Position numbers and translations under genes: made by a program
Notes under the pieces: generated by a model
What the model was told of the DNA's origin: nothing
The model's input: the letters and a program-made list of their open reading frames with translations, nothing else
Database searches by the model: none
IMG/VR virus record: IMGVR_UViG_3300030098_006058
Location: 25,109-89,108 of that record
Source: a virus
Direction: 5' to 3' (one strand)
Length of the DNA stretch: 64,000 nucleotides
Shown here: piece after piece, positions 3,001 to 63,878 of the stretch
How positions within the stretch are numbered: the stretch's first letter is position 1
Layout of the letters: each line of letters begins with the position of its first letter

Positions 3001-6000
3001 TACACCATCTGGTGATTATGCTCCTGATTTTTATTTTGCAGTTACTGCTGGAGTTGATATAAATTTAGATGATGATGGATTAATTGTTGAAGCAGATATT
3101 ACAGATCCAACTACTGGTATACTTTATAATGGATGTTGGAATGTAGACGAATTACCTGGATTGATGGATCCTTCTTTTTTAACTGATTGGGATTATATTA
3201 ATGTATTAGCTTCTACTGTTGTAGGGGGAAGTCCAGGAACTAGTTGTCATGGATGTACATATTGGTGTACAGCTACAGCAGGATGTGAAGTATTAGCTTG
3301 TGTTTCATCTGCACAGGATTATTTTGTAGAGTGTGGAGGATTTAGTCAGGCCGAACAAGGTGCTGGTGTATTAGCATTTGATGAAGATCCTCTTAGAGAA
3401 TGTTTTAGATTATGTAATAATAAATTTAATGGTGTACACGGAATAAACTGGTATTGGGGTAATGGAGCAGGATTGAAGTGGGAATTATTAGGTACTCCTT
3501 ATGCTACATTTGATGGAAATAGTCAAATGGGTATGGGGATTATAGGAATGCCAGGTGATTATGGATATACTAGATTTGGAAGTGCTGTACACTGTGTAGC
3601 TGAAAATATCACTATAGGAACTAAAGATTATGTTAAGGGAGATATTTTATTTTATACCGACGGTCATCATGTGTTTAATTCTAATCATGTATTCATGGAC
3701 AATGGTACAAATTTGGCTGGAGGAGATATGGTGAGTCCAATTTCAGATATTAATTCTGCTTATGATAATTATAGAATGGCTACACAACAGGCTATTATTG
3801 TACCAGACCCTCAAGGAGGATTTATAGGTAATAGTACAAAGACTCATGCTTGGTATTATATATTTTACCAATCAACAGGAGATGGACCTTTTTATTCGGC
3901 AAAAGTATTAATGGATACTTTTAATGGATTAGGACTTGTAGCTCCTGATACTATTGACTATAAAATACATGATAATTCTACAGAAAGATTATGTGTAAGT
4001 ACTGGAAGAACTGATGATGCAGAAGAGGTTTATTGGGTAATAGAAGTACAACCATGGTATGATATTCCAAATCCAGATTTTGGAACACCATTAGCAGAAC
4101 CTAATGCAACTATACGTGTTCATAAAGTTAGTGCTATTGGATTTGAAGTAGATTATACAATATTTGAATTAGATCAAAATAATATTCAGGGGAAATTAGA
4201 TAATTTCCAACAAATGTCTGTATGTGCAAGAATAAAAATGTCACCAGATAATAAATGGATTGTTCTAACAGGTTGGCAAGGAGGAGCGAATTGGACTCAA
4301 TTATTAAGATTTGATGAAACTACTGGAGAGATAGGTCCTACTTATGGAGAAATCTGGACAGATGCTCCAAATTTAGGGTGTGTTCCTGTTACTACAGGTT
4401 GTAATACTAATATTGCGACTAGTTTTATTCCAACAATGACTGCTGTTGAATTTGATGCAGGAAGTAATTATTTATATATGATAAGGAGCGGATCAATCTA
4501 TCCGCCAGAAGTTCCATCGGGAAGTTGTGAAGGTCAAAATACAATGCAACCTGCTTTATTAAGAAGATCTCTTGATGGTGTAACTGGAGAAATAGGAGAA
4601 ATAGAAATAGTAGAAAATAATATACAGTTTTTACCAGGAATCAATAATATTCCTGCTATGGATACTGAAGGACAAGGAGAGGGTTGTGCAAATCATGCAG
4701 CTATTCCAGTAGATATGGTTATAGGACCTGATTGGAATTTATATTATGGTATGTTTAAAGGTAAATTAACTGGAAGTCAGAATACAGGTTTAAGTTCTTG
4801 GAAACAAGGAAGTTTTATAGGACAGGATTTTAATGATGGCGAATTTAGTACATATGATAAATATATAGGTAGAGTTGTTAATCCTCATAATGACTATCCA
4901 ATAGTTCTAAGTCCTAATGAAGATCAGTGGGATCAAACTTATGTAAGTTTGGAAAATCGAAGAATGGCAACAGGATTCCCAGTATACTTAAAGAAAAAAT
5001 GTGCTCTACCTAGTGAAGATGATACTGTGTATGATGTGGGTGTAGCAGCTACATATGAAGCATGTGATGAAAGTACTGATTGTGGAATAGTTATACCTCC
5101 TATACCTGCATATCAATTAACTGAGTGTGGATGTTCAGGAGCAGATGGTATTGGTTGTGGGGGAGCTATTACAGATCCGTGCTATACTTGTGATAAGGAT
5201 TATGATGGCATTCAACAAACTACTGGATTAGAAGCGCCTACTTCTAATATTGTAGCTAATCCTACTGTTGGAAATGCTAAATGGAGTACTTTAGAAACTG
5301 GTACTAATTCTAGACATTGGACAGTCATTAGAGAAGCAGTAGAATTATTAGCTACTGGAGTTGATCAAACTGTAACACTGAGTTATAGTTATTGTAAAGG
5401 TGGAACTAGTTTTCATGGAGGACAGGTTTTACAAACTTTTGAACAAGGTCCTGCAACATCTAGAACAACTGGAATAAGCAATTATACTGGTGTTGCATTT
5501 GATTATGTATATGCAATAACTGAAATACAATTTAAAGCAGAAATTGCCTATTGCTTTCAAATAATGAAGGAATTATTTGAATCAGTATTTAACAAATCTT
5601 GTGGATATGGTGCTAATTTATGTTTAAATTTTGTACCTGCAAATGCACCAGGTTTAGCTCCTGGATCTGCTGCTTTAGGAAATGAAGTTTGGGATGGGGT
5701 TACTGGAACTGGAATTGTGAATGAAGATGAACTATTAAATAATCCAGTAGGAAGCCCTCAAGGAACTCCATTCGATGATTCTGCAGGAACTTCAGGAATA
5801 TCAAATATCGGTGATATTAGAATAGGTATGTCAGCTAATTCACCTTCGCCCGCAGGTGCACTAGGTCGTGGAGGATCTCCTTCTCCTAATTCTGTACCTG
5901 GGTTATCAAGAGATACTGGTTGTTATTTCGGTAACTGTAATACACAAAATCCAGCACGTATGTATTCATTGATATGGTTAGAGGGTAATACTGAGTGGAG

Positions 6001-11907: not shown

Positions 11908-12591
11908 ATGGGTCTTTTAGAAAAATGGAAAAATAGATTTGCTCCCGGTGGAGGAGATCGTATTGTAAGAACCAAAACAACCTATGGACAAAATTTAGAT
12001 CGTTCAGTAGATATGAATGGATTAATTACTGATATTGAAGATAATTTTGGTTCAGCTGCAAATGTAAGTTCAAATGAAACTAATATTGCTACTAATACAG
12101 CGAGTATTACTACTATTAATTCTTTGAATCCAAATAGTGCAAAAATAAATGTTACAGCAATAGGAGCAAAATCAGCTATGAATGCTCAGAATCTACATTT
12201 GATTGGAAATGTTATAACAATAGTACCTAGTCCAGGTGCGGGTAAAGCTATAGTACCTATAGCTTTAACTATAACATGTAAAGGAGGTTTGATAACAGAA
12301 AGTTCTAATAAAAGTTTAGTTTTTGGTTATGATTTTGTATTAACAGGCGGTCAAATGGGATTTTCAAGAGTTATGGGAACTGTGGCGAGTGGTAGATTTC
12401 AAACTTTAATGACTTCTCCATCTGCAGCGTCAGGAAATTGGATTCCTAAAACAGATGCAACCGATTCTCCAGAAGATAAACCACTTATCATGTGGGCAAG
12501 TGGAGCTCTTAATGGTAATTGGACTATAGAAGGTGGACTAGTATTTTGGTATGAGGCTACTTGTACTGATGCGGGTGTTTGGTCTGTTTAG
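11908..12591 (+). CDS. Putative tail fibre/spike-related protein
   Basis: Trimeric coiled-coil-like NETNIATNTASITTIN heptads followed by a beta-rich head. Confidence 0.45.
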   Translation: MGLLEKWKNRFAPGGGDRIVRTKTTYGQNLDRSVDMNGLITDIEDNFGSAANVSSNETNIATNTASITTINSLNPNSAKINVTAIGAKSAMNAQNLHLIGNVITIVPSPGAGKAIVPIALTITCKGGLITESSNKSLVFGYDFVLTGGQMGFSRVMGTVASGRFQTLMTSPSAASGNWIPKTDATDSPEDKPLIMWASGALNGNWTIEGGLVFWYEATCTDAGVWSV

Positions 12592-48660: not shown

Positions 48661-51121
48661 TTTTAATTAATTTTTTATTCAATTTTTTAAATTTTAAGGT
48701 TTCTTTATTCTTAGATTTTAGATAAGCTCTTAATGTTAAAAATAACTCTTTATCACGAAGTCGTTTTTCATCATTACTAGTTTCAACTTGTCTTAAATTT
48801 TGAATAATATCTAATCCTTTGGCATATTCTTCTAACTCTTTTAAAGTTTCTAAAGCTTTATGATCTACACAATCATATTCCTTACACATCTCTAATAAAA
48901 CCTCTCTTTCTTTCCAATTTAAAGATTGAAAATGATTATAATAATTAATATGCAATTTATGCAATTTTTTCCATTTATAAAAGAGTTTTTCATTAAGAGG
49001 TTTAAAGATTTGGAACATATTAATAGCTTCAACTCTATCTTTTATTAAATGAGCAGTATACCATCTTTTTACAATATCATGTTTCATTTTAAATAATTCT
49101 TCAATGTTAATATATTCACTTAATTCATCTTTAATACTATTAGCAACTTTAAGTATAACAACTCCATCATGATCTCTCCCATACTTTCTTTCATCTTCTT
49201 CAGGTTTATAAAAGAATCCACTTACTATATAATTCCTAGAATACATATTATAGGCTTTATCTCCTTGTCTACAAATAGAACCAACAGCTTTAAGTAAAAC
49301 ATCATGTTTAGAATTACCATAAATAATAATACCACCTTTATCTTTATATTCACCTAACTTTTCACCATCGGTTTCTATATTACCAAATTTATTATTATCA
49401 TTATGATCTTGATAAAATCTTCTACAAAATAACTTACCTAATCTTTTTCTTCTAGCTTGATCAGTTTCAAAATTACCTATAGCTTCTAATTCAGCTTCAT
49501 TAGTTACTTTAACATCATCATAACTATTAAATTTATGTTTACAACCATCCATTAGTTTACACATAATATTAAAATCAGATAAAATAGTAGCAGGAGTTCT
49601 AACTTCTAATCTAGCGCCCCACAAATCATAATCTTTTTCAGAAGCAATAACTTTATCGTCACATCTATTCTTTCTTAATTGAATATATTTCAGTTTTCCT
49701 TCTAATACAGTATCAAGAATATAAATATCTTTAGATTTTCTAAATGTCTTAGTAGGTTTCTCAGAACCATCTTCCCTTTTTTCATAAACTTGATCTTGAT
49801 AATAAATAGGATAATCTAAAAAATCTTCCCATTTAGTTTCAACTTTAGAAACTCTAAATCCTCCAGAATACTTACTATTATGTTCTTTAGAAACAGTATT
49901 AATAGTAAAACCCATAAATAATTTATTTATAGCTTTATCTTGTAAAGGATTCAGACTTAAATCTCCTACCATATCCATTTTAAGATCATCTCGCTTTAAG
50001 TTAGCAATATGAGCTCTTACCGCAAATACAGTTTTATATTCATGATTATAATAAGAATGTCTTTTATTTATAGCATGAGCCATTTCAATCCAATGTATAA
50101 AATCTGTTGCATTATTTAATTCTTTATTACAATCATCTATACATTGGTTTCTAACCTTCTTATATTTAGCTTTAATTGCTTCTTTAGTTCTATCAGTATA
50201 TCGAATAGATTCCCTTGATGGAACCAAATCAATTTCACCAATAGCAAACTTAAGAGCAGCTGGAGCACGATCTTCATCTATTCCATCTAATTGATTAAAA
50301 TCTAAAGGATATCTTACTCTACCTACCATACAATGTACTTCTCTATCAATATGATCAAAATCAGTTAATTTTAAAGCTATAGCTAAATCATCATCTTCAT
50401 ATTCACATTGAATAGCTTGCATTTTAGCACCTAATCCTTCTTCAATATTTATATATTCTAAGTTATCAAAATATAATAATTGCTGTTCTATAGACTTTTT
50501 AAACGTTCTAAGATCTTTATCCTCTTTTATAGGTATAATTACTTCAGTAGAGTTTAAATCCTCTGTAGGGCTTGATTTTATCATATCCATATGAAATGCA
50601 TCATTACCTTTATATAACATATAAGAATATTTAACACCATTATGATTAGCTATAATATAAAATGTATTAGTATATGCAAATGGAGATTTAGCTCCAATAC
50701 CAAATCCACCTATTTGTAAATTGTTATCTCTTTTAGTTGAATTACCAAACATAGTGTAGATAGTTTCTACTCTTTGTTGGCTTAATCCAATACCAAAATC
50801 TCTAAATATCATTGCATTACCAATACCTAATAATATATTCTCTTCTTGAAATTCTATTTGAGGACACTTTTTATCATCATGCCAATATTTAGATTCATCT
50901 TCATGAGTACTAGGAATAGTTCCCATTCTCTTAAGACGCTTCTCTCTATGTGCATCATAACAATTAGATGTTACTTCTCTTACTATAGAACCTATAGGAT
51001 CAGAATATAAATTAATTAAAGAATCGATGATAATTCCCATAGAATCTTCACCGATCTTAAATTTATTGGTTTTCATTTCACCAATAATTTTTTCTACGCT
51101 TTTTTCTCTTTTAATTTCCAT
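48650..51121 (-). CDS. rIIA: rIIA-like protein (GHKL/Hsp90-like ATPase N-domain)
   Basis: LYSDPIGSIVREVTSNCYDA, RDFGIG, STK, GGFGIGAKSPFAY; adjacent to rIIB. Confidence 0.85.
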   Translation of the reverse strand: MEIKREKSVEKIIGEMKTNKFKIGEDSMGIIIDSLINLYSDPIGSIVREVTSNCYDAHREKRLKRMGTIPSTHEDESKYWHDDKKCPQIEFQEENILLGIGNAMIFRDFGIGLSQQRVETIYTMFGNSTKRDNNLQIGGFGIGAKSPFAYTNTFYIIANHNGVKYSYMLYKGNDAFHMDMIKSSPTEDLNSTEVIIPIKEDKDLRTFKKSIEQQLLYFDNLEYINIEEGLGAKMQAIQCEYEDDDLAIALKLTDFDHIDREVHCMVGRVRYPLDFNQLDGIDEDRAPAALKFAIGEIDLVPSRESIRYTDRTKEAIKAKYKKVRNQCIDDCNKELNNATDFIHWIEMAHAINKRHSYYNHEYKTVFAVRAHIANLKRDDLKMDMVGDLSLNPLQDKAINKLFMGFTINTVSKEHNSKYSGGFRVSKVETKWEDFLDYPIYYQDQVYEKREDGSEKPTKTFRKSKDIYILDTVLEGKLKYIQLRKNRCDDKVIASEKDYDLWGARLEVRTPATILSDFNIMCKLMDGCKHKFNSYDDVKVTNEAELEAIGNFETDQARRKRLGKLFCRRFYQDHNDNNKFGNIETDGEKLGEYKDKGGIIIYGNSKHDVLLKAVGSICRQGDKAYNMYSRNYIVSGFFYKPEEDERKYGRDHDGVVILKVANSIKDELSEYINIEELFKMKHDIVKRWYTAHLIKDRVEAINMFQIFKPLNEKLFYKWKKLHKLHINYYNHFQSLNWKEREVLLEMCKEYDCVDHKALETLKELEEYAKGLDIIQNLRQVETSNDEKRLRDKELFLTLRAYLKSKNKETLKFKKLNKKLIKNEK

Positions 51122-57185: not shown

Positions 57186-57904
57186 ATAGCATATTCTTTA
57201 AAATGTTTATGTAATTTAGTATAATCCTCCATAGCATTACTAGGATGAGAAGACTTTAAAGCATCTGTAGCTGCACCATATAAAGCATATAATGTTCGTT
57301 CAGCAAATTTATTATCTAATGCATTATGAGGTGAATATTCACCATCATTCCAACTAGACTTTATTTTGTTCATCTGAACTCCATTAAGAATATCTTTATT
57401 TAAATATGCATCTCCTAATATTTTAGCTGCTTCTACATCAGTAATACCTACTTGTTCAAACATAATAAGATCATCTGTTGCTTGTTCAGCTGCTATATCA
57501 GCTCTTGCAATAACTGAAGGTATAATATCTTCAAGATCTTCCCATACATTTATTGTATGTTTTCTTATCTTAGTAATATCACCAACAAACATTAAATTAC
57601 TACATACAACTACTTGAGCACCAGAACATAAGCCTACTGCTACAGATTTATCATATGAATTTCTAAAACCTATAGATATATTATGATGTATCCCAGGTGC
57701 TTGAAAATTCATAACTCCAAACATTTGTCTACCTTCTCTAGCCATTTCAAAATTCCTACTAGTTAAACCCCAGTAAGAAGGTATATGCTTTTCAATACTT
57801 AATACAAGATCAGTATGTGAGACTGGCATATAAGAGTCTGTCATTGTTGGAAGAGGAATTGTACTTAATTCACTTACTTCCTTAGTTGAAAATCTTTTTT
57901 TCAT
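57182..57904 (-). CDS. DUF932-family protein
   Basis: YMPVSH, RNSYDKS, VCSNLM, H. Confidence 0.7.
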   Translation of the reverse strand: MKKRFSTKEVSELSTIPLPTMTDSYMPVSHTDLVLSIEKHIPSYWGLTSRNFEMAREGRQMFGVMNFQAPGIHHNISIGFRNSYDKSVAVGLCSGAQVVVCSNLMFVGDITKIRKHTINVWEDLEDIIPSVIARADIAAEQATDDLIMFEQVGITDVEAAKILGDAYLNKDILNGVQMNKIKSSWNDGEYSPHNALDNKFAERTLYALYGAATDALKSSHPSNAMEDYTKLHKHFKEYAI

Positions 57905-59778
57905 TATTTACTCCATTTTTTAGTTATTGTATAATCTACTGTCATATCAAACCCTTTGATAATCATTGCGCCAGCTTCTTTCATTAGCTTGCATTGTAAT
58001 TTAGCCCATTCTTCAGCAAAATCATCTCTTACTTCTACACCTATTTCATCATGTACTTGTGTTACCATATAACATGGTAAATTAAACTTTTTAATGTGTT
58101 CTCTAATAAGAACCATAGCTTGTTTAATCATATCTGCACCAGTACCTTGAATTGGTGTATTCTTAGATGCTCGTTCAATAGCACCCATAGTTTTAAAATC
58201 TTTTTGAGATGTATGTATACCTTTGAACCAATTAGGAAACCATCTAATCCTTCTAAAAGGTTTAAATGTTCTAATATGTCCATTTTCTACACCATATCTA
58301 CCAAGTTTATGTAAGAATGCTTTAATGTTAGGAAATGCACTAAAATATTTATTAATTAATTTAGCAGCTTCATCAACACTAATATTTAGTGTATCAGATA
58401 ATTTAAATTTACTCATACCATAAGCTAAACCAAAATTAATAGTTTTAATCATAGTTCTTAAAGCTATTTTATCACCGGTATGCCATTGTTCGCCAAATAC
58501 TAATTCAGCACAAACAGAATGTAAATCTTCATTATTTTTCCTACAACTAATCCAAACTGGATCTTGAGAACCATAAGCGATAATAGCTAACTCCTGCCCA
58601 CTATAATCAACAGATACAATACTATATCCATCTCTAGAATGAAAGCAATTCCGAAACTGATTCCTCGCTGGAATGTTCTGCATATTAGGCTTACGATCCT
58701 CTTTAGATCCACTAGAAACTCTTCCTGTGTTTAAAACTTGCCAGAAAGAAGTTCTAACCTTACCATCTTTCATCACATATTTAAGAAAAGATTTACCATA
58801 AGTACTCGATATTTTTTGCTTTTCTTTATATCGTAAATACTTGGTAATCAGAGGTTTATCTTTAAACTTAGATAGCTCAAACGCATTCACGTTATCTATT
58901 TTTTTACCTAGGTATGAAGAAATTACTCTTTTTACCTGAAGAGGAGATGACCACTTAACGTCTACTTTACGCAAATCTTCAACTGGAGTAAACATATCTA
59001 ACTGCACATAATCAGCTATAAAATCAGTCAACCTATTAACCACGATTTCATTATCTAATTCATCTTCTAAATCTGTTACTACTACTTCATTTTGTTTTGC
59101 GTTTTCTAACCAAGAACGCTCATCAAAACATAGACCATTATATTCTATGTCAGCAAATGCTAATACAGCTTTACATTCAAGTAAATGAATTCTCATGAGT
59201 CCTAATTTGTCTATTTGTGTTATTTGTTGTTCTCTAATGTTTAATAAGTATTTTACGTCGTCAGCGCCATATACAATTTGCTCAGTACTAAAAGGTTTCC
59301 CTTCTAATCCGATGAACTTATTGCGAATTTCTTTGTTAAGTGATCTCCCCAGATATCTTTGTGTTAAATGATTAAGACTATATCCATATTTATCTTTACC
59401 ACAATTTAATACACATTCAGCTAACATAGTATCATAAACATTTTCTACTTCAATATTATAATTTGATTTAATAAATTTATAATCAAATTTAACATTGTGA
59501 AATATCTTTAATACTTTTTTACTTTCTAATATATTTCTTAATGGTTCTATAGATATATCTCTTGTATCTATCACATATTGAACTTCTTCTGTTCCAATTT
59601 GAAACATTACTATTTTCTTTCGAGTGAAGTCCTTTCCCGAAGTTTCAGTATCAACTCCTAAAACAAGTTGATCTTTCAAATAATCTACACATTCCTCCAT
59701 TGTTGATAATTCAAAATGGGAGGTCTCTGTCCCTGTTATTTGGTTTTGATTTGTTATTAATTTTATCTTGCTCATCAT
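57904..59778 (-). CDS. polA: Family A DNA polymerase with 3'-5' exonuclease
   Basis: DTETSG, HNVKFD, YGADD; TGRVSS, PNMQNIP, DYSGQE, KTINFGLAYG, NTPIQGTGAD, VHDE. Confidence 0.95.
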   Translation of the reverse strand: MMSKIKLITNQNQITGTETSHFELSTMEECVDYLKDQLVLGVDTETSGKDFTRKKIVMFQIGTEEVQYVIDTRDISIEPLRNILESKKVLKIFHNVKFDYKFIKSNYNIEVENVYDTMLAECVLNCGKDKYGYSLNHLTQRYLGRSLNKEIRNKFIGLEGKPFSTEQIVYGADDVKYLLNIREQQITQIDKLGLMRIHLLECKAVLAFADIEYNGLCFDERSWLENAKQNEVVVTDLEDELDNEIVVNRLTDFIADYVQLDMFTPVEDLRKVDVKWSSPLQVKRVISSYLGKKIDNVNAFELSKFKDKPLITKYLRYKEKQKISSTYGKSFLKYVMKDGKVRTSFWQVLNTGRVSSGSKEDRKPNMQNIPARNQFRNCFHSRDGYSIVSVDYSGQELAIIAYGSQDPVWISCRKNNEDLHSVCAELVFGEQWHTGDKIALRTMIKTINFGLAYGMSKFKLSDTLNISVDEAAKLINKYFSAFPNIKAFLHKLGRYGVENGHIRTFKPFRRIRWFPNWFKGIHTSQKDFKTMGAIERASKNTPIQGTGADMIKQAMVLIREHIKKFNLPCYMVTQVHDEIGVEVRDDFAEEWAKLQCKLMKEAGAMIIKGFDMTVDYTITKKWSK

Positions 59779-59974
59779 TTCTAATTTTTAAATCTTCTGC
59801 GTATTTTTCAACGCATGCTAAACATATATTACTTCGTGTACTTATTATAATAGATCCCATACCAACTCGTATAGATTTATTACTCCACACTGCTAAGTGA
59901 AATTTATTTGGAGGTATCTTAGCCTTACACTCCCCGCATTTTCGCCTGCGTAAGGCTTGATCTAATACCCACAT
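59711..59974 (-). CDS. Small Zn-finger protein ending in DLPF
   Basis: CGEC...CLAC; C-terminal RDLPF; overlaps the polA start. Confidence 0.55.
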   Translation of the reverse strand: MWVLDQALRRRKCGECKAKIPPNKFHLAVWSNKSIRVGMGSIIISTRSNICLACVEKYAEDLKIRNDEQDKINNKSKPNNRDRDLPF

Positions 59975-59985
59975 ATTTATTTCGT

Positions 59986-60054
59986 TTAATTTGTAATTTT
60001 ACATAAGATTAAAAATCCTATGATATATAATAATATTAATCCTAATATCTCCAT
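59986..60054 (-). CDS. Candidate 22-aa single-TM peptide
   Basis: MEILGLILLYIIGFLILCKITN*, with an A-rich leader. Confidence 0.35.
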   Translation of the reverse strand: MEILGLILLYIIGFLILCKITN

Positions 60055-60108
60055 CTAAATTTTTTATTATTTAATACTAATCTGCTAATCTGGATTTATT
60101 ATGATTAA

Positions 60109-60233
60109 AATGTTTTAGGATAGCTAGGAGTCAAACCTAGAAATAGGGTTCTATTTCGGATAACTAGCACATCCTCTCAGCATATCTCGATAATATACTA
60201 AACATATCTCAGCCATGTCTATCCTAAAACATT
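60109..60233 (-). ncRNA. tRNA-like structured RNA (aberrant or pseudo-tRNA)
   Basis: 15-bp terminal stem AATGTTTTAGGATAG/CTATCCTAAAACATT; T-arm-like CTAGG-TTTGACT-CCTAG; TGGCTGAG D-like segment; extra hairpins. Confidence 0.5.
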
Positions 60234-60268
60234 AAGATAAATTGGTGCTAAGAATATACAGTATAAGA

Positions 60269-60454
60269 TTATTTTAATGGTCCATGTATTGATTTAATAT
60301 ATGTACCATTTCTACTATCCCATACTACCCTGCCATTTGAATGTAATTTTGTTCTGTCTTTTAATGATTTCATACGCTCTTTGTAGTCTTTTTTAGACTC
60401 ACCTGGTTGACGTTTACCTTTCATATTAATATTATAAAATGCTGATTCACTCAT
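60269..60454 (-). CDS. Small basic hypothetical protein
   Basis: 61 aa, KRQPGESKKDYKER; overlaps the upstream ORF stop. Confidence 0.55.
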   Translation of the reverse strand: MSESAFYNINMKGKRQPGESKKDYKERMKSLKDRTKLHSNGRVVWDSRNGTYIKSIHGPLK

Positions 60455-60699
60455 ATTGTTCCTATTATTAAACAGGTAATAGCAGCTTTTAAACTGGTTA
60501 ATCTATCATCCATAATATTAATATCTTCTTTACTTGCTGTTTCTTTAACACTCTCTCTTAATGCTTCTACTTCAACAAGTTTAGCATCTAATACCTCAAC
60601 AGCATAAGGTAAATGTGTTTTTCTTTTCCTTATATCAGGAGTTAAATTCATAAGATATTCATATTTCTTATGTATTTCTTCATTAATATTTATTTTCAT
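60451..60699 (-). CDS. Small helical hypothetical protein
   Basis: 82-aa ORF with A-rich leader. Confidence 0.55.
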   Translation of the reverse strand: MKININEEIHKKYEYLMNLTPDIRKRKTHLPYAVEVLDAKLVEVEALRESVKETASKEDINIMDDRLTSLKAAITCLIIGTI

Positions 60700-60818
60700 A
60701 ATTATTTAATTTTATTTTAACATTATATTAACATTAGATATGTATATTGTCTTCAATGAAAATAGACATATCTAAATTTATTTACATTATCATGATGATA
60801 ATAGTATTTGCTTTAAGC

Positions 60819-60960
60819 GTATAAGCCTAGTGATACTTTCAATAATAATGGGTTTAACACTCTAGCTCTTTAGCACTGTGTTACATCGTCCGGTGGACTA
60901 CTTTCCCGCGATAAGCTGGCCGGCCTATCTTTATTATCTAATAATATCACTGGCTCATAC
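60819..60960 (-). ncRNA. Multibranch structured RNA
   Basis: 16-bp closing stem GTATGAGCCAGTGATA/TATCACT(A)GGCTTATAC; inner GATAGG/CTTATC, GTCC/GGAC, TAACAC/GTGTTA. Confidence 0.55.
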
Positions 60961-61071
60961 ATAAACAATAGCAAGATCAGAACAGTCCATGGTTATTCTG
61001 CTAATGCGATCCATAATATAATCCCAACTTACATCCCTAATTAAAGAGAAATCTTCCGAAAATATATTAAT

Positions 61072-61250
61072 TAGTTCTATACAGAACTAGAGGACCCATT
61101 AGACCAGCCTAACAACGTGGTGTTATCGTAAATATCCATTCGGATAAATAGGATAATCAGCACTACATGGTGACGTGCTTTACAAGACCCTGTTAATATC
61201 CCTGCTGGGAGTGGTGTATGAGGATTTACTCTCATACCTAATGCAGCCTC
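61072..61250 (-). ncRNA. Nested multibranch structured RNA (about 160-180 nt)
   Basis: GAGG..CATTAG/CTAATG..CCTC, GTATGAG/CTCATAC, CCAGC/GCTGG, TAACAG/TTGTTA, TTGTAAA/TTTACGA, GCAC/GTGC, TATCC/GGATA, trailing TAGTTCT/AGAACTA. Confidence 0.55.
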
Positions 61251-61293
61251 ACGGTTCAACACTTGCTATTATTTATAATGATTTATACAAAAA

Positions 61294-61375
61294 AACTATG
61301 TGAACAGGAAATGGTATTTATTCACACAAAGTATAACAGGTAGTTAATAATTAAATACAACCTGCTCACATAGTT
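61294..61375 (-). ncRNA. Long stem element followed by U-tract
   Basis: AACTATGTGAGCAGG/CCTGTTCACATAGTT (15 bp, one G:U on minus strand), then a T-run. Confidence 0.5.
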
Positions 61376-61380
61376 ATAGG

Positions 61381-61481
61381 ATAGGGATATTATGACCGCA
61401 CAAAAAAGAAGCTGTAGCCAAACAATAAAAGCTAGAACTAAAAACACCGGTTGAGAGCATTACTGTATTCTCTATCCCTAT
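61381..61481 (-). ncRNA. Structured element closed by ATAGGGATA/TATCCCTAT
   Basis: 9-bp perfect closing stem; inner GAGA/TCTC, ACCG/CGGT, TAGC/GCTA. Confidence 0.4.
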
Positions 61482-61495
61482 TATAATTGCCAGCA

Positions 61496-61550
61496 GGGAG
61501 AATTTTGTGTTCAGAACGACCCGGTATGTTCTTATTAACTCATCTCCCCC
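61496..61550 (-). ncRNA. Extended bulged hairpin just 3' of the tmRNA-like RNA
   Basis: GGGAGA/TCTCCC, TGAGTT/AACACA, AGAAC/GTTCT. Confidence 0.45.
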
Positions 61551-61568
61551 TTTTAAACTCTGGACTTG

Positions 61569-61642
61569 TGGAGGTGGCCGGAATCGAACCGACGTTCTTA
61601 AGCAGTATTCATCATACTGCGAAAGCAAACCACTGCACCCCC
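61569..61642 (-). ncRNA. Minimal tmRNA-like (tRNA-like-domain-only) RNA with alanine identity
   Basis: GGGGGTG-CAGTGGTTTGCTTTC-GCAGTAT-GATGA-ATACTGC-TTAAGAAC-GTCGG-TTCGATT-CCGGC-CACCTCC-A: G3:U70, A73, canonical T-arm, no canonical D-stem or anticodon loop. Confidence 0.65.
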
Positions 61643-61838
61643 ATGTGGTAAAACGAATAATTGTTGTAGCACCTTCTATTATTAATTTAATTAACTTAAA
61701 CTGTCTTACCACTTGATTTTTTCATACCAATAATACCATTCTAATTCATTTTTCCGCTTCATAGATTGTATTTGTTGATAAATAGCAAAGTCTAGTGCTT
61801 TTCTTTTGCTATATAGTCTTATTATCCAATAAAGTATT

Positions 61839-62120
61839 TTAGATGTCTTCATACTTATTTAATGTACAAAACATGCCAATACCTCTTGCATATTCTCCTT
61901 TTATTACTTCAGTTAATTTAAATAGAGTTATACCTACTATTACTGAGAAATAAAGGATTATTAAGTCAAATATGACTATTTTTGCTATTCCTACATCCAT
62001 TACATAATAAGGTAATAGAAACATAAAGAATAGACTTGCTAATATGAATACTACTTTTAATAAGCATTCAACCCAAAATAACATTAGTTTTTTCATTTTT
62101 TTTCTTTTTAAATTAAACAT
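61839..62120 (-). CDS. Small two-TM membrane protein
   Basis: Two long hydrophobic segments. Confidence 0.5.
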   Translation of the reverse strand: MFNLKRKKMKKLMLFWVECLLKVVFILASLFFMFLLPYYVMDVGIAKIVIFDLIILYFSVIVGITLFKLTEVIKGEYARGIGMFCTLNKYEDI

Positions 62121-62144
62121 TTAACTTGATTCTTATTTTAAAAA

Positions 62145-62172
62145 TGAACAGTTTGTCTTCATGTTCAGGAAT
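62145..62172 (-). repeat. Intergenic mini-pseudoknot motif, copy 1
   Basis: ATTCCTGAACATGAAGACAAACTGTTCA. Confidence 0.6.
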
Positions 62173-62177
62173 AGATA

Positions 62178-62486
62178 TTAAAAATAAGGATTATATCCTT
62201 CATTCTCTAAATCTTCTAGATCAGGATGATAATCTGCTTTACTTTTTAACCATTCATACATTTCTTTCTTCAGTAAATCTACTGAATATGTACCGTAAAG
62301 TAATATCATCTCTAATTGTTCAAGATTTCTTTCACGGTCAGCATAAACAGCCATAAAGTCTAGATTATGTACCTTTCTAATCATTAACAATATGTTTTGT
62401 AAATGATTATCATCTAAATCTGTGATAAGAATATTCTTACCTTGTTGTGTCTTCCAGTATACTGGAAAGTTAAGTTCTTTTTGCAT
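62178..62486 (-). CDS. Hypothetical phage early protein
   Basis: WKTQQGKNILITDLDDNHLQNI, a pattern common in small phage proteins. Confidence 0.6.
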   Translation of the reverse strand: MQKELNFPVYWKTQQGKNILITDLDDNHLQNILLMIRKVHNLDFMAVYADRERNLEQLEMILLYGTYSVDLLKKEMYEWLKSKADYHPDLEDLENEGYNPYF

Positions 62487-62542
62487 ATTAATGTCTTTTA
62501 ATGTTCATAATTATTGATTTATACAGTTTACTCTGTTAAATT

Positions 62543-62570
62543 TGAACAGTTTAATATCATGTTCAGGATA
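62543..62570 (-). repeat. Intergenic mini-pseudoknot motif, copy 2
   Basis: TATCCTGAACATGATATTAAACTGTTCA. Confidence 0.6.
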
Positions 62571-62588
62571 CAATTAGTCAGCTATGAC

Positions 62589-63293
62589 TTACAATTTAGG
62601 TAGAGTATCTACAGGTTTAATTTCACCAGTTACTGTATTCACTACTTCTTTTGAACTAACAATCTTGTTTAAAGGATTGTATTCAATATCATCTTCAGTA
62701 GCTTCAGCAATCATATTGTGAGTCCAATCATCTACATTTTCAAACTCATCAGTTTCTGCATTATAAGTTGCAGCAGCTAATTCAGTTTTACTAAATATAT
62801 GAGATAACTCACCATTATTATTACCATAGATGAAATCACCATCTCTTCCTTTCTTTTTAGCAGATTTATCTAAGTTAGCTAAATCCCACTCATCTCCTTC
62901 AAATGTCTCATTGATTCTAATTCTCAAGAACAACTCTTGACCTAGATGATTAATTGATGGGTTTTCAACACCTAAGAACATAGGTTCTCCACCAATCTCC
63001 AAAGCATTTAGAGTTTCTTCAGTTAAATGTTTAGGAAACATATTCAGAAGTTCTGTTGCTTTGATGAGACTAAATACTCTTCTTGCACCTCTATTATTAA
63101 ATCTTGGGTCAGATGCATTTAAAATACCCAACATATTAGTCATTCTTTGACCAGTATTAACTCTTTCAGCTACTTCTAGTTGAAAGTTATCAATAGTTGG
63201 ATCATTAGAGTTGACCTTTCGTACAGTTAATGCTGCACACACACCTTCTTTAAGGTTCTTTATGAAATTATCAATTTGTTGTTGTAAATCCAT
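62589..63293 (-). CDS. Hypothetical acidic protein
   Basis: 234-aa ORF with phage-typical codon usage. Confidence 0.65.
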   Translation of the reverse strand: MDLQQQIDNFIKNLKEGVCAALTVRKVNSNDPTIDNFQLEVAERVNTGQRMTNMLGILNASDPRFNNRGARRVFSLIKATELLNMFPKHLTEETLNALEIGGEPMFLGVENPSINHLGQELFLRIRINETFEGDEWDLANLDKSAKKKGRDGDFIYGNNNGELSHIFSKTELAAATYNAETDEFENVDDWTHNMIAEATEDDIEYNPLNKIVSSKEVVNTVTGEIKPVDTLPKL

Positions 63294-63653
63294 GTCTTTA
63301 TATGATACTTATGTTTATTCTCCGCTTATCAATTTTCAGAGTCTAATGACAACTTTAGCTATATATATATTAATATATACTATTATTATCGTGGTTAAAA
63401 TAGGTTAAAAAATGGTATATGAGAGTATTAACTGTCTTTGAGTATACTTTTATTTTCATAATGATGCTACACTCTATAGTTGGAATTGTTTTAATGTGAT
63501 TAAAAGGAATATAATTCAAATATAAAAAAAGAATTAGTTAATACTCTATACCTACATTTAGTAAAGGTTCTTGATCTAGTGTTTTGTGAAGAAGACTATC
63601 AAATGCATATTCATATGAGGGTAATTTAATAGTCTTCAACTCCAACCAAGAGT

Positions 63654-63878
63654 TTATTTTTTAATATAATTATTTATTTTATTCATGTCAGCATAAATCA
63701 TAATCCTTTTATGTCCATCCCAAGTACAGCTTCTTTCTAATTTATCTGTTGTTGGATTGTATTGTTTAGGGTAATGTATTAGTCCCATAAATTGATGACC
63801 AAATAATGTTGGTTCTCCAAATATTTCATGAATCAGGTCCATTTCAGATTCTAATGCGTTTATCCATTGTTTATTCAT
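63654..63878 (-). CDS. Hypothetical protein
   Basis: 74-aa ORF with A-rich leader. Confidence 0.5.
   Translation of the reverse strand: MNKQWINALESEMDLIHEIFGEPTLFGHQFMGLIHYPKQYNPTTDKLERSCTWDGHKRIMIYADMNKINNYIKK

What the first reader, a model, noticed from the sequence alone, without database searches (positions are those of the whole stretch)
60109..61642. Cluster of about seven structured non-coding elements in the early region
Seen: in about 1.5 kb with only two short credible ORFs, the minus strand carries a series of self-contained folds: TLD-like RNA (61569-61642), bulged hairpin (61496-61550), stem 61381-61481, stem 61294-61375, multibranch 61072-61250, multibranch 60819-60960, hairpin 60734-60775 and tRNA-like 60109-60233. 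In two long stems the single mismatch is G:U on the minus strand but A:C on the plus strand, which favours selection on a minus-strand RNA. Inference: a polycistronic ncRNA locus, possibly processed at the tRNA-like units, supplying decoys against host translation, transcription or defence factors.
Basis: partly seen in the sequence, partly recalled or inferred. Interest (0 to 1): 0.8.

Follow-up and report, generated by a model that had tools for sequence, protein, structure and literature searches.

The report
Non-coding RNA island, marine crAss-like phage
A gene-poor 1.5 kb stretch of an uncultured marine crAss-like phage encodes several real folded RNAs: a tag-less mini-tmRNA, a tRNA-like RNA and a roughly 450-base two-domain RNA that matches no catalogued family and whose function is unknown.

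Summary
On the minus strand, 60109-61642 holds structured RNA genes, not proteins.

Well supported:
- A 74-nt tmRNA tRNA-like domain with G3:U70 (Rfam tmRNA 42.3 bits, E 5e-15, below the gathering score of 47).
- A 15-bp-stemmed hairpin at 61294-61375.
- A tRNA-like cloverleaf at 60109-60233, with 13 of 28 pairs compensatory, found in 15 related loci.
- A roughly 450-nt two-domain RNA at 60809-61260, with 21 of 92 pairs compensatory.

Contigs from marine RNA libraries of three studies lie on 60878-61274.

Weak or unconfirmed: the bulged hairpin, stem 61381-61481 and hairpin 60734-60775.

"Polycistronic" and "decoy" remain inference. Published work supports decoy action (SmpB titration) only for the mini-tmRNA.

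Closest known are the TLD-only tmRNA of mycobacteriophage DS6A and the abundant early non-coding RNAs of Cellulophaga phage phi14:2, to which I found no similarity.

This scan's earlier follow-ups reported mini-tmRNAs and this kind of large RNA before, on other phage DNA.

New here: two near-identical phages differ mainly by swapped hairpins in the large RNA. Also, phi14:2's non-coding region holds an unannotated full tmRNA.

The parts
61569..61642 (-). TLD-only mini-tmRNA. It has a 7-bp acceptor stem with G3:U70, A73, a stem-less D region, a 7-bp hairpin with a 5-nt loop in place of the long tmRNA body, and a T arm. CAA rather than CCA follows.
   Evidence: Rfam tmRNA 42.3 bits, E 5.3e-15, gathering score 47, with only 25 nt where the model has 320. 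ARAGORN calls no tRNA or tmRNA. z -2.35. Present only here and in L002, where it is 100% identical.
61496..61550 (-). Bulged hairpin just after the TLD. Weakly supported.
   Evidence: z -0.77. Against L002, 8 of the 9 differences in 345 nt fall here, including G-C to A-U and U-A to C-G at paired positions.
61381..61481 (-). Unconfirmed 'stem'. It contains an inner hairpin (about 61410-61439) followed by a U-run (about 61399-61409), which may be a terminator of the TLD unit.
   Evidence: z -1.42. Identical in L002. The U-run part aligns with L003 and L006. The terminator scan reported none; the terminator reading is mine, from the fold.
61294..61375 (-). Hairpin RNA with a 15-bp closing stem around a sequence-conserved interior of about 50 nt, followed by a U-run.
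   Evidence: z -6.0. 22 consensus pairs, 3 compensatory, 2 G.U/A-U or C-G/U.G switches, 0 broken, in 4 distinct sequences. Found in L002, L003, L004, L006 and L007.
60980..61260 (-). Domain I of the large RNA. It is closed by 61251-61257 pairing with 60980-60986, and has further long-range helices 61166-61170/60987-60991 and 61093-61102/61001-61011.
   Evidence: Helices 1, 3, 5 and 7 of alignment A5 carry 2, 4, 3 and 4 compensatory pairs. Contigs from RNA libraries cover 60878-61274, and those of two studies end at 61260. The ORF here is not conserved.
60809..60967 (-). Domain II of the large RNA. A long closing stem (about 27 bp with bulges) surrounds a conserved GC-rich hairpin and variable hairpins.
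   Evidence: z -6.25. The closing stem is kept in 14 sequences of two clades, with changes on both sides in 6 sequences at each of three pairs. The variable part is replaced in L002.
60734..60775 (.). AT-rich palindromic hairpin between the large RNA and the 82-aa ORF. It could be an RNA hairpin or a DNA-level regulatory palindrome.
   Evidence: z -4.38. Matches in both orientations. Conserved in 6 sequences with no compensatory change, and one pair is U.U in 3 of 6.
60451..60699 (-). ORF of 82 aa, function unknown. It is the first gene after the large RNA.
   Evidence: An 82-aa ORF stands at this position in L002, L003, L004, L006 and L007; 82-aa ORFs also occur upstream of PolA in L010 and L013. 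No Pfam match above its cut-off and no PHROGs match.
60269..60454 (-). ORF of 61 aa, function unknown. Its start overlaps the stop of the 82-aa ORF by 4 nt.
   Evidence: No family match.
60109..60233 (-). tRNA-like RNA ('F'). It has a 14-15-bp acceptor-like closing stem, a 3-bp D-like arm with a GG-containing loop, a 5-bp arm with a 6-7-nt loop lacking U33, a 7-bp variable-arm-like hairpin and a T arm. An extra hairpin occurs only in the closest clade.
   Evidence: z -5.35. 13 of 28 pairs compensatory; 96.4% of cells paired against 84.3% in shuffles; 0 of 500 shuffles reach it. Model R2 finds it in 15 of 83 sources at 92-113 bits, and cross-hits a true tRNA-Arg and the TLD at about 21-23 bits. 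ARAGORN calls none.

Best explanation
This is an island of separate, stable, structured RNA genes on the minus strand of a marine crAss-like phage, just upstream of its replication genes. I count at least four.

(1) A tag-less mini-tmRNA, that is, the tRNA-like domain only. Inferred steps: trimming by RNase P and 3' nucleases, CCA addition, charging by AlaRS through G3:U70, binding of SmpB, and competition with host tmRNA. The effect would be less rescue-and-tagging of stalled ribosomes during infection.

(2) A hairpin RNA with a 15-bp stem.

(3) A two-domain RNA of about 450 nt, from an uncatalogued family of 260-450 nt shared by two phage clades. RNA-library contigs suggest it accumulates as a discrete RNA. 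It has a conserved core and peripheral hairpins that are exchanged between near-identical phages. I read it as a trans-acting scaffold RNA, the counterpart of the abundant early non-coding RNAs of phage phi14:2. Its partner is unknown.

(4) A tRNA-like RNA with a T-loop/D-loop elbow but no anticodon loop. It probably engages tRNA-recognising enzymes (RNase P/Z, modification enzymes), either to be cut out as a stable RNA or to punctuate the transcript ahead of the polymerase genes.

Shown: the folds, the coding strand, the conservation, the absence of coding, and the presence in RNA libraries.
Inferred: every biochemical step and all targets.
For: Non-coding and minus strand: Rfam, ARAGORN and ORF data; 46 G.U against 1 A.C cell; weaker opposite-strand consensus folds.

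Covariation:
- Large RNA: 21 of 92 pairs compensatory, 97.0% of cells paired against 90.7% in shuffles, 0 of 500 shuffles reach it. Slid controls give 32-42% paired and 0-2 compensatory pairs.
- The homologous RNA in the 65%-PolA clade: 17 of 47 pairs compensatory.
- Joint alignment of 14 sequences: 12 of 26.
- tRNA-like F: 13 of 28.
- Stem 61294-61375: 3 of 22.

Expression: six marine RNA runs from three studies hold 5-13% of the sampled words. In the four runs laid, all 7 contig pieces lie within 60878-61274, one of them 356 nt long at word depth 71.5 with a single differing letter. Contigs of two studies end at 61260 with no loose end.

TLD: G3:U70, A73 and the T arm aligned to Rfam tmRNA. 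A narrow pattern scan found at least 120 viral loci, 87 of which ARAGORN does not call tRNA (65 distinct sequences). DS6A 'TLD only', and inhibition of tmRNA by such a molecule, are stated in PMC4131195 (passages read).

phi14:2 precedent: two long intergenic regions are transcribed above most genes, early, and do not decline later (bioRxiv 10.1101/2020.03.07.982082, passages read).

Hairpin swapping: window against L002 shows 40 and 46 differences in two 100-nt bins inside the large RNA, against 0-6 in the other bins from 60100 to 63699.
Against: - No RNA ends, strand or abundance were measured. The RNA-library data are assembled contigs, which can contain DNA and cannot show strand or level.
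- The TLD, the bulged hairpin and stem 61381-61481 occur only here and in one near-identical contig, so they have no covariation support. Two of them fold no better than shuffles.
- The TLD scores below Rfam's gathering score and is followed by CAA, not CCA.
- No sequence or model similarity to the phi14:2 non-coding region was found, so that link is by analogy only.
- The link between the 80% and 65% clades for domain I rests on weak model scores (16.1 and 11.5 bits, E 0.48 and 3.7), plus synteny and the strongly conserved domain II stem.
- In both clades the large RNA and F lie directly upstream of ORFs, which fits a cis-acting leader equally well.
- No partner protein was identified. The neighbouring ORFs have no family match.
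Confidence: 0.55

Rival explanations
1. Cis-acting leaders and processing signals. The 450-nt RNA (with hairpin 60734-60775) would be a long structured 5' leader controlling or stabilising the mRNA for the 82-aa and 61-aa ORFs. F would be a tRNA-like 'punctuation' site where RNase P/Z or RNase III cuts the transcript ahead of the polymerase genes. The long stems would be RNase III sites, like those between phage T7 early mRNAs (recalled, not checked).
For: - The large RNA ends about 110 nt before the 82-aa ORF here. In the 65% clade it ends about 30 nt before the next ORF.
- F lies directly upstream of the 87-aa ORF and PolA here, and of a 617-aa ORF in the 65% clade.
- The closing stems of 14-27 bp are kept by compensatory change.
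- All units share one strand with the flanking genes.
Against: - RNA-library contigs of two studies end at 61260, as if a discrete RNA starts there (a weak hint).
- The phi14:2 non-coding RNAs behave unlike the other early transcripts: they do not decline later.
- A 450-nt, 14-helix fold with swapped peripheral hairpins is more elaborate than known processing sites.
- No ligand-binding or leader family matched in Rfam.
Confidence: 0.25
2. Replication-priming RNA. The large structured RNA next to the polymerase genes would form a persistent RNA-DNA hybrid that primes DNA synthesis at a nearby origin, as RNA II does for ColE1 plasmids (recalled, not checked).
For: The location is 1-1.5 kb upstream of PolA in both clades. 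AT-rich stretches (12-15% GC) flank it at 60650-60799. The phi14:2 RNAs are made early.
Against: There is no turn in cumulative GC skew at this place. I saw no origin-like repeats; the large RNA and F occur once each in the genome by nhmmer. Nothing tested bears directly on priming.
Confidence: 0.07
3. Decaying remnants. The TLD, F and the small hairpins would be leftovers of former tRNA or tmRNA genes with no present function, carried along in a recombination-prone region.
For: The TLD block is present in only 2 of the loci examined. Module content varies between relatives, with inserts in L003, L005 and L007. A related cultured phage has a full tmRNA, so the TLD could be a deletion product.
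Against: F and the large RNA keep their helices through many compensatory changes across clades whose PolA is only about 65% identical. The TLD keeps every alanine-identity and T-arm feature. TLD-only genes are common in viral contigs: 87 of 120 pattern hits.
Confidence: 0.06
4. DNA-level elements. The inverted repeats would act as cruciforms or protein-binding palindromes (origin, packaging or operator sites), not as RNA.
For: Hairpin 60734-60775 is a near-perfect palindrome, conserved in sequence without covariation.
Against: Pairs are kept through G.U on the minus strand, which would be A.C on the other strand: 46 against 1, 21 against 1, and 41 against 3 cells. Opposite-strand consensus folds are much weaker. 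Multi-helix junctions and long-range pairs make no sense for duplex DNA.
Confidence: 0.03

Closest known systems
Abundant early long non-coding RNAs of Cellulophaga crAss-like phage phi14:2 (g004-g005 and g005-g006 junctions; Drobysheva et al., bioRxiv 10.1101/2020.03.07.982082, passages read)
   Same: Both are marine crAss-like phages with a long ORF-free stretch among small genes of unknown function (phi14:2 2905-4601). Those RNAs are transcribed above most protein genes, and their function is unknown. Both regions carry a tmRNA-type gene: a full tmRNA at L209:4031-4500 by ARAGORN, Rfam 46.0 bits.
   Different: nhmmer profiles and model R1 found no similarity to phi14:2. phi14:2 has a full tmRNA with a tag reading frame, whereas this phage has only the tRNA-like domain. 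Gene order differs, and the PolA proteins of cultured crAss-like phages are only about 28-30% identical to this one. Supplements of that paper were not seen.
'TLD only' tmRNA of mycobacteriophage DS6A (Hudson, Lau & Williams 2014, PMC4131195, passages read; they cite Mao et al. 2009, which I did not read)
   Same: [quoted passage not shown] It has alanine identity, a T arm, no tag reading frame and no pseudoknots.
   Different: The host phylum and phage type differ, and no sequence comparison with DS6A was made here. Here the gene sits in a cluster with other structured RNAs. CAA rather than CCA follows.
GOLLD and ROOL large ornate RNAs (Kretsch et al., bioRxiv 10.1101/2024.12.08.627333, passages read)
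   Same: Large, multi-helix RNAs of unknown function, encoded by phages and prophages and often next to tRNA genes. One GOLLD came from a marine sample downstream of a tRNA-Met.
   Different: No Rfam match to either family, even at E up to 10. This RNA is smaller (260-450 nt, against GOLLD, many of whose members exceed 800 nt). Oligomer or cage formation was not tested.
Stable RNAs 'species 1 and 2' of the phage T4 tRNA gene cluster, and the RNase-P-processed antisense immunity RNAs of P4 (CI) and P1/P7 (c4). All are recalled from memory, not checked in any call.
   Same: Small stable phage RNAs with tRNA-like ends or folds, cut out of longer early transcripts. In P1/P7, loop sequence on a common scaffold sets specificity, which resembles the swapped hairpins seen here.
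   Different: No homology was tested. No complementary target was found in this genome.

Membership tests
tmRNA (Rfam RF00023) | Acceptor stem with a G3:U70 wobble and A73, plus a T arm with the GGUUCGAnUCC loop | tested here: met
   cmscan alignment; sequence read.
tmRNA (Rfam RF00023) | mRNA-like domain with a resume codon and a tag reading frame, plus pseudoknots | tested here: not met
   Only 25 nt lie where the model has 320. ARAGORN finds no tmRNA in the window.
tmRNA (Rfam RF00023) | Score at or above the curated gathering score (47 bits) | tested here: not met
   42.3 bits, E 5.3e-15. No hit in gathering mode.
TLD-only mini-tmRNA (DS6A type) | The tRNA-like domain alone, closed by a short helix in place of the tmRNA body, in a phage genome | tested here: met
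   87 of 120 viral pattern hits have the same build and are not called tRNA by ARAGORN. That retrieval pattern fixed the acceptor and T-loop letters, so it is not an independent test of those.
TLD-only mini-tmRNA (DS6A type) | Charged with alanine; binds SmpB; inhibits trans-translation | not testable with these tools
   Known only from the statement in PMC4131195 about a similar molecule.
Canonical tRNA | Cloverleaf with a 7-nt anticodon loop (U33) that tRNA finders recognise | tested here: not met
   ARAGORN finds 0 genes in the window. The TLD hairpin loop is 5 nt. The corresponding loop of F is 6-7 nt, varies in sequence and has G, A or no base at position 33. No tRNA model hit at E up to 10.
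tRNA-like structure (elbow mimic) for F | Acceptor-like stem stacked on a T arm with the canonical T loop, plus a GG-containing D-like loop | tested here: met
   Consensus fold with covariation in all five helices. Model R2 cross-hits a true tRNA-Arg (22.9 bits) and the TLD (20.6 bits). The tertiary elbow itself was not tested.
Any Rfam 15 family for the 450-nt RNA (GOLLD, ROOL, RNase P, 6S, group I/II introns, IMES and others) | Covariance-model match | tested here: not met
   0 matches at gathering score in the whole window. At E up to 10 over 59900-61900, only tmRNA-type hits and one chance hit appeared. 0 hits at E up to 0.1 in five related loci.
phi14:2 early non-coding RNAs | Sequence or structure homology to the phi14:2 intergenic RNAs | tested here: not met
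   nhmmer with five profiles: best E 0.099-3.3, none inside a matching unit. Model R1 with filters off: best 9.6 bits, E 8.1, on the opposite strand.
phi14:2 early non-coding RNAs | Abundant, early, persistent transcript of an ORF-free region of a crAss-like phage | tested here: inconclusive
   Contigs from RNA libraries of three studies lie on 60878-61274. Contigs cannot show timing, strand or level.
Intrinsic terminator (for 61294-61375 and the inner hairpin of 61381-61481) | GC-rich stem followed by a U-run | tested here: not met
   The scan found 0 terminator-like sites in 59700-62300. U-runs after both hairpins are visible in the sequence, but the stems are AU-rich or enclose large loops.

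The most novel reading that the evidence does not exclude
The roughly 450-nt RNA is a conserved scaffold carrying exchangeable 'specificity' hairpins. Two phages that are otherwise almost identical across this region differ by wholesale, structure-preserving replacement of two of its peripheral hairpins, and by compensatory changes in the hairpin next to the TLD. The window's version of one of these hairpin regions matches a more distant relative (L007).

This would mean the RNA recognises a variable partner, such as a host defence or translation factor or another nucleic acid, and is under diversifying selection, much as tail fibres are for receptors. Together with the series from full tmRNA (phi14:2) to TLD-only (here), it would mark an RNA-based early host-takeover toolkit in marine crAss-like phages.
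Probability: 0.15. Interest if true: 0.85.

Novelty: new variant of a known kind. Interest (0 to 1): 0.62.

Why it matters
crAss-like phages are among the most abundant phages, and the only cultured marine one makes early non-coding RNAs more abundantly than most of its mRNAs, with no known role.

This locus offers that open question concrete, comparable objects:
- a covariation-supported fold for a 260-450-nt RNA family that turns up in ocean RNA libraries;
- a tRNA-like RNA conserved in 15 loci;
- a mini-tmRNA that points to ribosome rescue as one target.

The hairpin swapping between near-identical phages suggests which parts of the large RNA carry specificity, and this can be tested by exchanging them.

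The finding that the phi14:2 non-coding region contains a full tmRNA gene links a published but unexplained transcript to a known pathway in a system that can be grown in the laboratory.

Tried and rejected
- blastn (distant mode) of 59900-61900 against 50,697 phage records: no match.
- Rfam at gathering score over the window: 0 hits. Over five relatives at E up to 0.1: 0 hits.
- Consensus promoter and terminator scan: 16 promoter-like sites against 16.9 expected, and 0 terminators. Uninformative.
- Fixed 120-nt sliding z-score scan: only F and 61294-61375 stand out. It is too sensitive to boundaries to judge the larger folds.
- Exact conserved 22-mer and 19-mer from the large RNA in viral contigs: only the contigs already known, plus one 428-kb contig that I did not follow up.
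- nhmmer of the profiles against 80 PolA loci: the large RNA of the closest clade is found only in L002-L007, and F only in the 80% and 65% clades. Nothing was found in the roughly 50% clade.
- Model R1 with default filters finds only the 65% clade.
- The MAFFT joint sub-alignment A8 misaligned the two clades and was not used.
- A motif shared upstream of the TLD and of the large RNA: one 4-mismatch copy among many similar AT-rich hits. It is a weak lead only.
- Search for antisense targets of the variable hairpins in the phage genome: the opposite-strand matches I saw (the output was cut) were at most 11 nt exact (E 0.5 or more) or 13-14 nt with one mismatch (E 3 or more), which is chance level. 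This gives no support for a cis target. Host genomes were not searched.
- Exact T-arm/acceptor 23-mer in genome contigs, to infer the host: 27 hits across many phyla. Uninformative.
- Pfam and PHROGs on 7-9 neighbouring ORFs: nothing useful.
- Comparison of the 234-aa ORF with phi14:2 g004: no similarity.
- RNA-library contigs gave no cover outside 60878-61274 in the four runs laid. By the tool's own caution this is not evidence that the neighbouring genes or the small RNAs are silent, and I do not use it as such.
- I considered a D-stem-less tRNA-Ala for the TLD (lead from e1-6042632). I rejected it because the hairpin has a 5-nt loop and no UGC anticodon.
- I considered the large RNA as the coding piece of a two-piece tmRNA. 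ARAGORN finds none, and the permuted-tmRNA model gives only 21.8 bits, E 0.069.


Full report
CONTEXT. The window is bases 25109-89108 of an 89,108-bp IMG/VR virus record that CheckV rates as complete. Genome GC is 31%. The family-A DNA polymerase just downstream of the finding (57904-59778, minus strand) is 28-30% identical to PolA of crAss-like phages (cr108_1, crAss001, IAS virus). A PolA search of viral contigs gave 264 relatives, of which 80 were kept as loci. They fall into four groups by PolA identity: one at 99% (L002), five at 78-80% (L003-L007), about a dozen full-length ones at 62-66% (among L008-L020), and the rest near 50%. All genes around the finding are on the minus strand. The genome is tightly packed. 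Stretches of 250 nt or more without an ORF of 70 aa exist only near the two ends of the record and at window 59975-60450 and 60700-61373. A spurious 112-aa GTG frame masks the TLD part.

CHECK OF THE EIGHT ELEMENTS. Fold energies against 200 dinucleotide shuffles are:
- TLD: z -2.35
- bulged hairpin: z -0.77
- stem 61381-61481: z -1.42
- stem 61294-61375: z -6.0
- 61072-61250: z -2.6
- 60819-60960: z -6.25
- 60734-60775: z -4.4
- tRNA-like 60109-60233: z -5.35

Four elements therefore fold far better than chance, and two do not. blastn shows which are shared. The TLD, the bulged hairpin and stem 61381-61481 occur only in L002. All the other elements occur in most or all of L003-L007, and the 3' half of the tRNA-like unit also occurs in the 65% clade.

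THE TWO 'MULTIBRANCH' UNITS ARE ONE RNA. I aligned window 60807-61261 with five relatives (A5) and folded the alignment. This gave 92 consensus pairs in 14 helices, 21 of them with compensatory change. The decisive helices are long-range:
- 61251-61257 pairs with 60980-60986.
- 61166-61170 pairs with 60987-60991.
- 61093-61102 pairs with 61001-61011.

These carry 2, 3 and 4 compensatory pairs. Overall, 97.0% of cells are paired, against 90.7 +/- 0.6% in 500 column shuffles, none of which reaches the observed value. Sliding the partners by 1-3 columns gives 32-42% paired and 0-2 compensatory pairs.

The 65% clade has a shorter homologue of 245-303 nt. It shares the domain II closing stem, the UGUAAAG...GUCAC segment and the GACU segment, and 17 of its 47 pairs are compensatory. 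A joint alignment of 14 sequences keeps 26 pairs, 12 of them compensatory. A covariance model of domain I built from the 65% clade, run with filters off, picks out the exact start of the RNA in L003 (16.1 bits, E 0.48) and L006 (11.5 bits, E 3.7). That is weak on its own but consistent with synteny. The short ORF inside domain I is broken in L002, L003 and L007.

STRAND. In the three consensus structures, G.U cells outnumber A.C cells by 46 to 1, 21 to 1 and 41 to 3. Because those structures were predicted on this strand, I also folded the reverse-complement alignments. They give -43.0 against -58.6, -13.0 against -24.2, -23.2 against -37.0 and -6.4 against -13.4 kcal/mol.

EXPRESSION. Six marine metatranscriptome runs from three studies hold 5-13% of the sampled words of 60000-61900. 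I laid four of them. All seven contig pieces fall within 60878-61274. One is a 356-nt contig at word depth 71.5 with a single differing letter. Contigs from two different studies stop at 61260 without a loose end. That position is the first base of the conserved block and would be the 5' end of the minus-strand RNA. These are contigs, so they show presence in RNA libraries but not strand, level or true ends.

THE TLD. Rfam's tmRNA model aligns the acceptor stem (G3:U70), the D-region and the T arm, with 25 nt where the model has 320 (42.3 bits, E 5.3e-15, gathering score 47). The middle is a 7-bp hairpin with a 5-nt loop, so it is neither a tRNA nor a full tmRNA. ARAGORN of them tRNAs (29 of these are tRNA-Ala). 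The other 87 (65 distinct sequences, 60-88 nt) have the TLD-only build, and 16 of the 87 are likewise followed by CAA. Hudson, Lau and Williams list mycobacteriophage DS6A as 'TLD only' and note that a similar molecule strongly inhibits tmRNA, perhaps by titrating SmpB (PMC4131195, passages read). Within the PolA loci, only L002 shares this gene.

THE tRNA-LIKE RNA 'F'. Nine, then twelve, sequences give the same five-helix fold:
- a closing stem that extends to 14-15 bp;
- a 3-bp D-like arm;
- a 5-bp arm with a 6-7-nt loop;
- a 7-bp variable-arm-like hairpin;
- a T arm.

13 of 28 (or 27) pairs are compensatory, and none of 500 shuffles reaches the observed values for cells paired, compensatory pairs or the covariation score. 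The loop in the anticodon position has no U33 and varies in length, so this RNA does not decode. Model R2 finds F in 15 of 83 sources at 92-113 bits. It also weakly hits a genuine tRNA-Arg and the TLD, which fits tRNA mimicry. A different small tRNA-like element lies upstream of PolA in one locus of the 50% clade (L076).

SMALL HAIRPINS.
- Stem 61294-61375 has a 15-bp stem with three compensatory pairs and two wobble switches, and a strongly conserved interior.
- The bulged hairpin has two compensatory pairs against L002, in a stretch otherwise identical but for one base.
- Stem 61381-61481 has no informative relative.
- Hairpin 60734-60775 is conserved without covariation, loses a pair in 3 of 6 sequences, and may act as DNA.

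HAIRPIN SWAPPING. Window against L002 shows 365 differences in 10,006 aligned columns, and they are strongly clustered. There are 136 in 59700-60099, 40 in 60800-60899, 46 in 61100-61199 and 7 in 61500-61599, against 0-6 per 100 nt elsewhere between 60100 and 63699. The two clusters inside the large RNA are peripheral hairpins replaced by different sequences of the same shape. The window's domain II is closer to L007 (93.7% identity) than to L002 (82.5%). That pattern points to exchange by recombination and possibly diversifying selection. I found no complementary target in the phage genome.

COMPARISON WITH WHAT IS KNOWN. Leads from earlier notes of this scan sent me to phi14:2. The preprint states that two long intergenic regions are transcribed more than most genes, early, and without a later decline, and that their function is undetermined. 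In NC_021806 the ORF-free stretch is 2905-4601. ARAGORN finds a full tmRNA at 4031-4500 with a tag reading frame, and Rfam gives it 46.0 bits. The record shows no RNA feature there, and the preprint's main text mentions tmRNA only once, in its methods. I found no similarity between my RNAs and phi14:2. GOLLD and ROOL are phage-borne, ornate and often beside tRNA genes, but they do not match.

MECHANISM AND ITS LIMITS. It is settled that this is a set of minus-strand structured RNA genes. What follows is inferred:
- The TLD acts on ribosome rescue.
- F and the long stems recruit tRNA-processing enzymes or RNase III.
- The large RNA is a trans-acting scaffold.

The main rival is that the large RNA and F are cis-acting leaders or processing sites for the downstream replication genes. 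Position favours that reading, and my data do not exclude it. That this is an 'early' region is assumed by analogy with phi14:2 and was not shown.

Noticed in passing
L209 (NC_021806, Cellulophaga phage phi14:2) 4031-4500: ARAGORN calls a full tmRNA with a tag reading frame, and Rfam tmRNA gives 46.0 bits (gathering score 47). It lies inside the g005-g006 intergenic region that was published as an abundant long non-coding RNA. The RefSeq record shows no RNA feature there, and the preprint's main text does not mention it.
   Followed up: partly
window 59700-60099: This is the strongest divergence hot-spot between the window and L002 (136 differences). The 87-aa ORF at 59711-59974, which overlaps the PolA start, has a weak PHROGs endonuclease hit (E 0.0059). 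It has no ATG ORF of 40 aa or more as counterpart in L002, while L003, L004, L006 and L007 carry a 76-aa ORF there. It may be a mobile or exchanged small gene.
   Followed up: no
L221 (Flavobacteriales MAG contig DQKQ01000076.1) 4176-4609: ARAGORN calls a permuted (two-piece) tmRNA whose acceptor piece has the same T arm and acceptor 3' strand as the window's TLD. A short ORF lies between the two pieces. One neighbouring ORF is 47% identical to a gene of this phage (genome 8610-8984).
   Followed up: partly
L003 about 1680-1760, L007 about 3830-4020, L005 about 4700-4920 (alignment A4, columns 170-345): Relatives carry extra inserted elements between the 15-bp-stem hairpin and the large RNA, including a hairpin shared by L007 and L005. 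The module content of the island varies between close relatives.
   Followed up: no
L076:3735-3813: A different small tRNA-like element (acceptor-like stem, long hairpin, canonical T arm) lies about 1.6 kb upstream of PolA in a phage of the 50% clade. Model R2 gives 22.1 bits; fold z is -1.9.
   Followed up: partly
genome 1-329 and 89014-89103 (outside or at the end of the window): One stretch of L002 matches both ends of the record, so the record ends in a direct repeat. The gene-poor region therefore continues from window 64000 into genome 1-3325. That part holds further ORF-free gaps (1-611, 1471-2000, 2948-3325) and a tRNA-Met at genome 2538-2610 on the plus strand.
   Followed up: no
window 61671-61688 and 61261-61278: A similar AT-rich motif ending in AGT/GGT followed by G lies just upstream of the large RNA's putative 5' end, and about 28 nt upstream of the TLD. 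A similar string precedes the tmRNA acceptor piece in L221. It could be a promoter or a coincidence in AT-rich DNA.
   Followed up: partly
window 49802-49816 and genome 1157-1170: There are exact same-strand repeats of variable-hairpin sequence. 15 nt of the domain I variable hairpin recur at 49802-49816 (E 0.004), and 14 nt of the domain II variable hairpin recur at genome 1157-1170 (E 0.017).
   Followed up: no
L207 (IMGVR_UViG_3300014208_000023, 428 kb) 11966-11984: An exact 19-nt match to the conserved GC-rich hairpin of domain II occurs in an unrelated 428-kb viral contig. Possibly chance.
   Followed up: no
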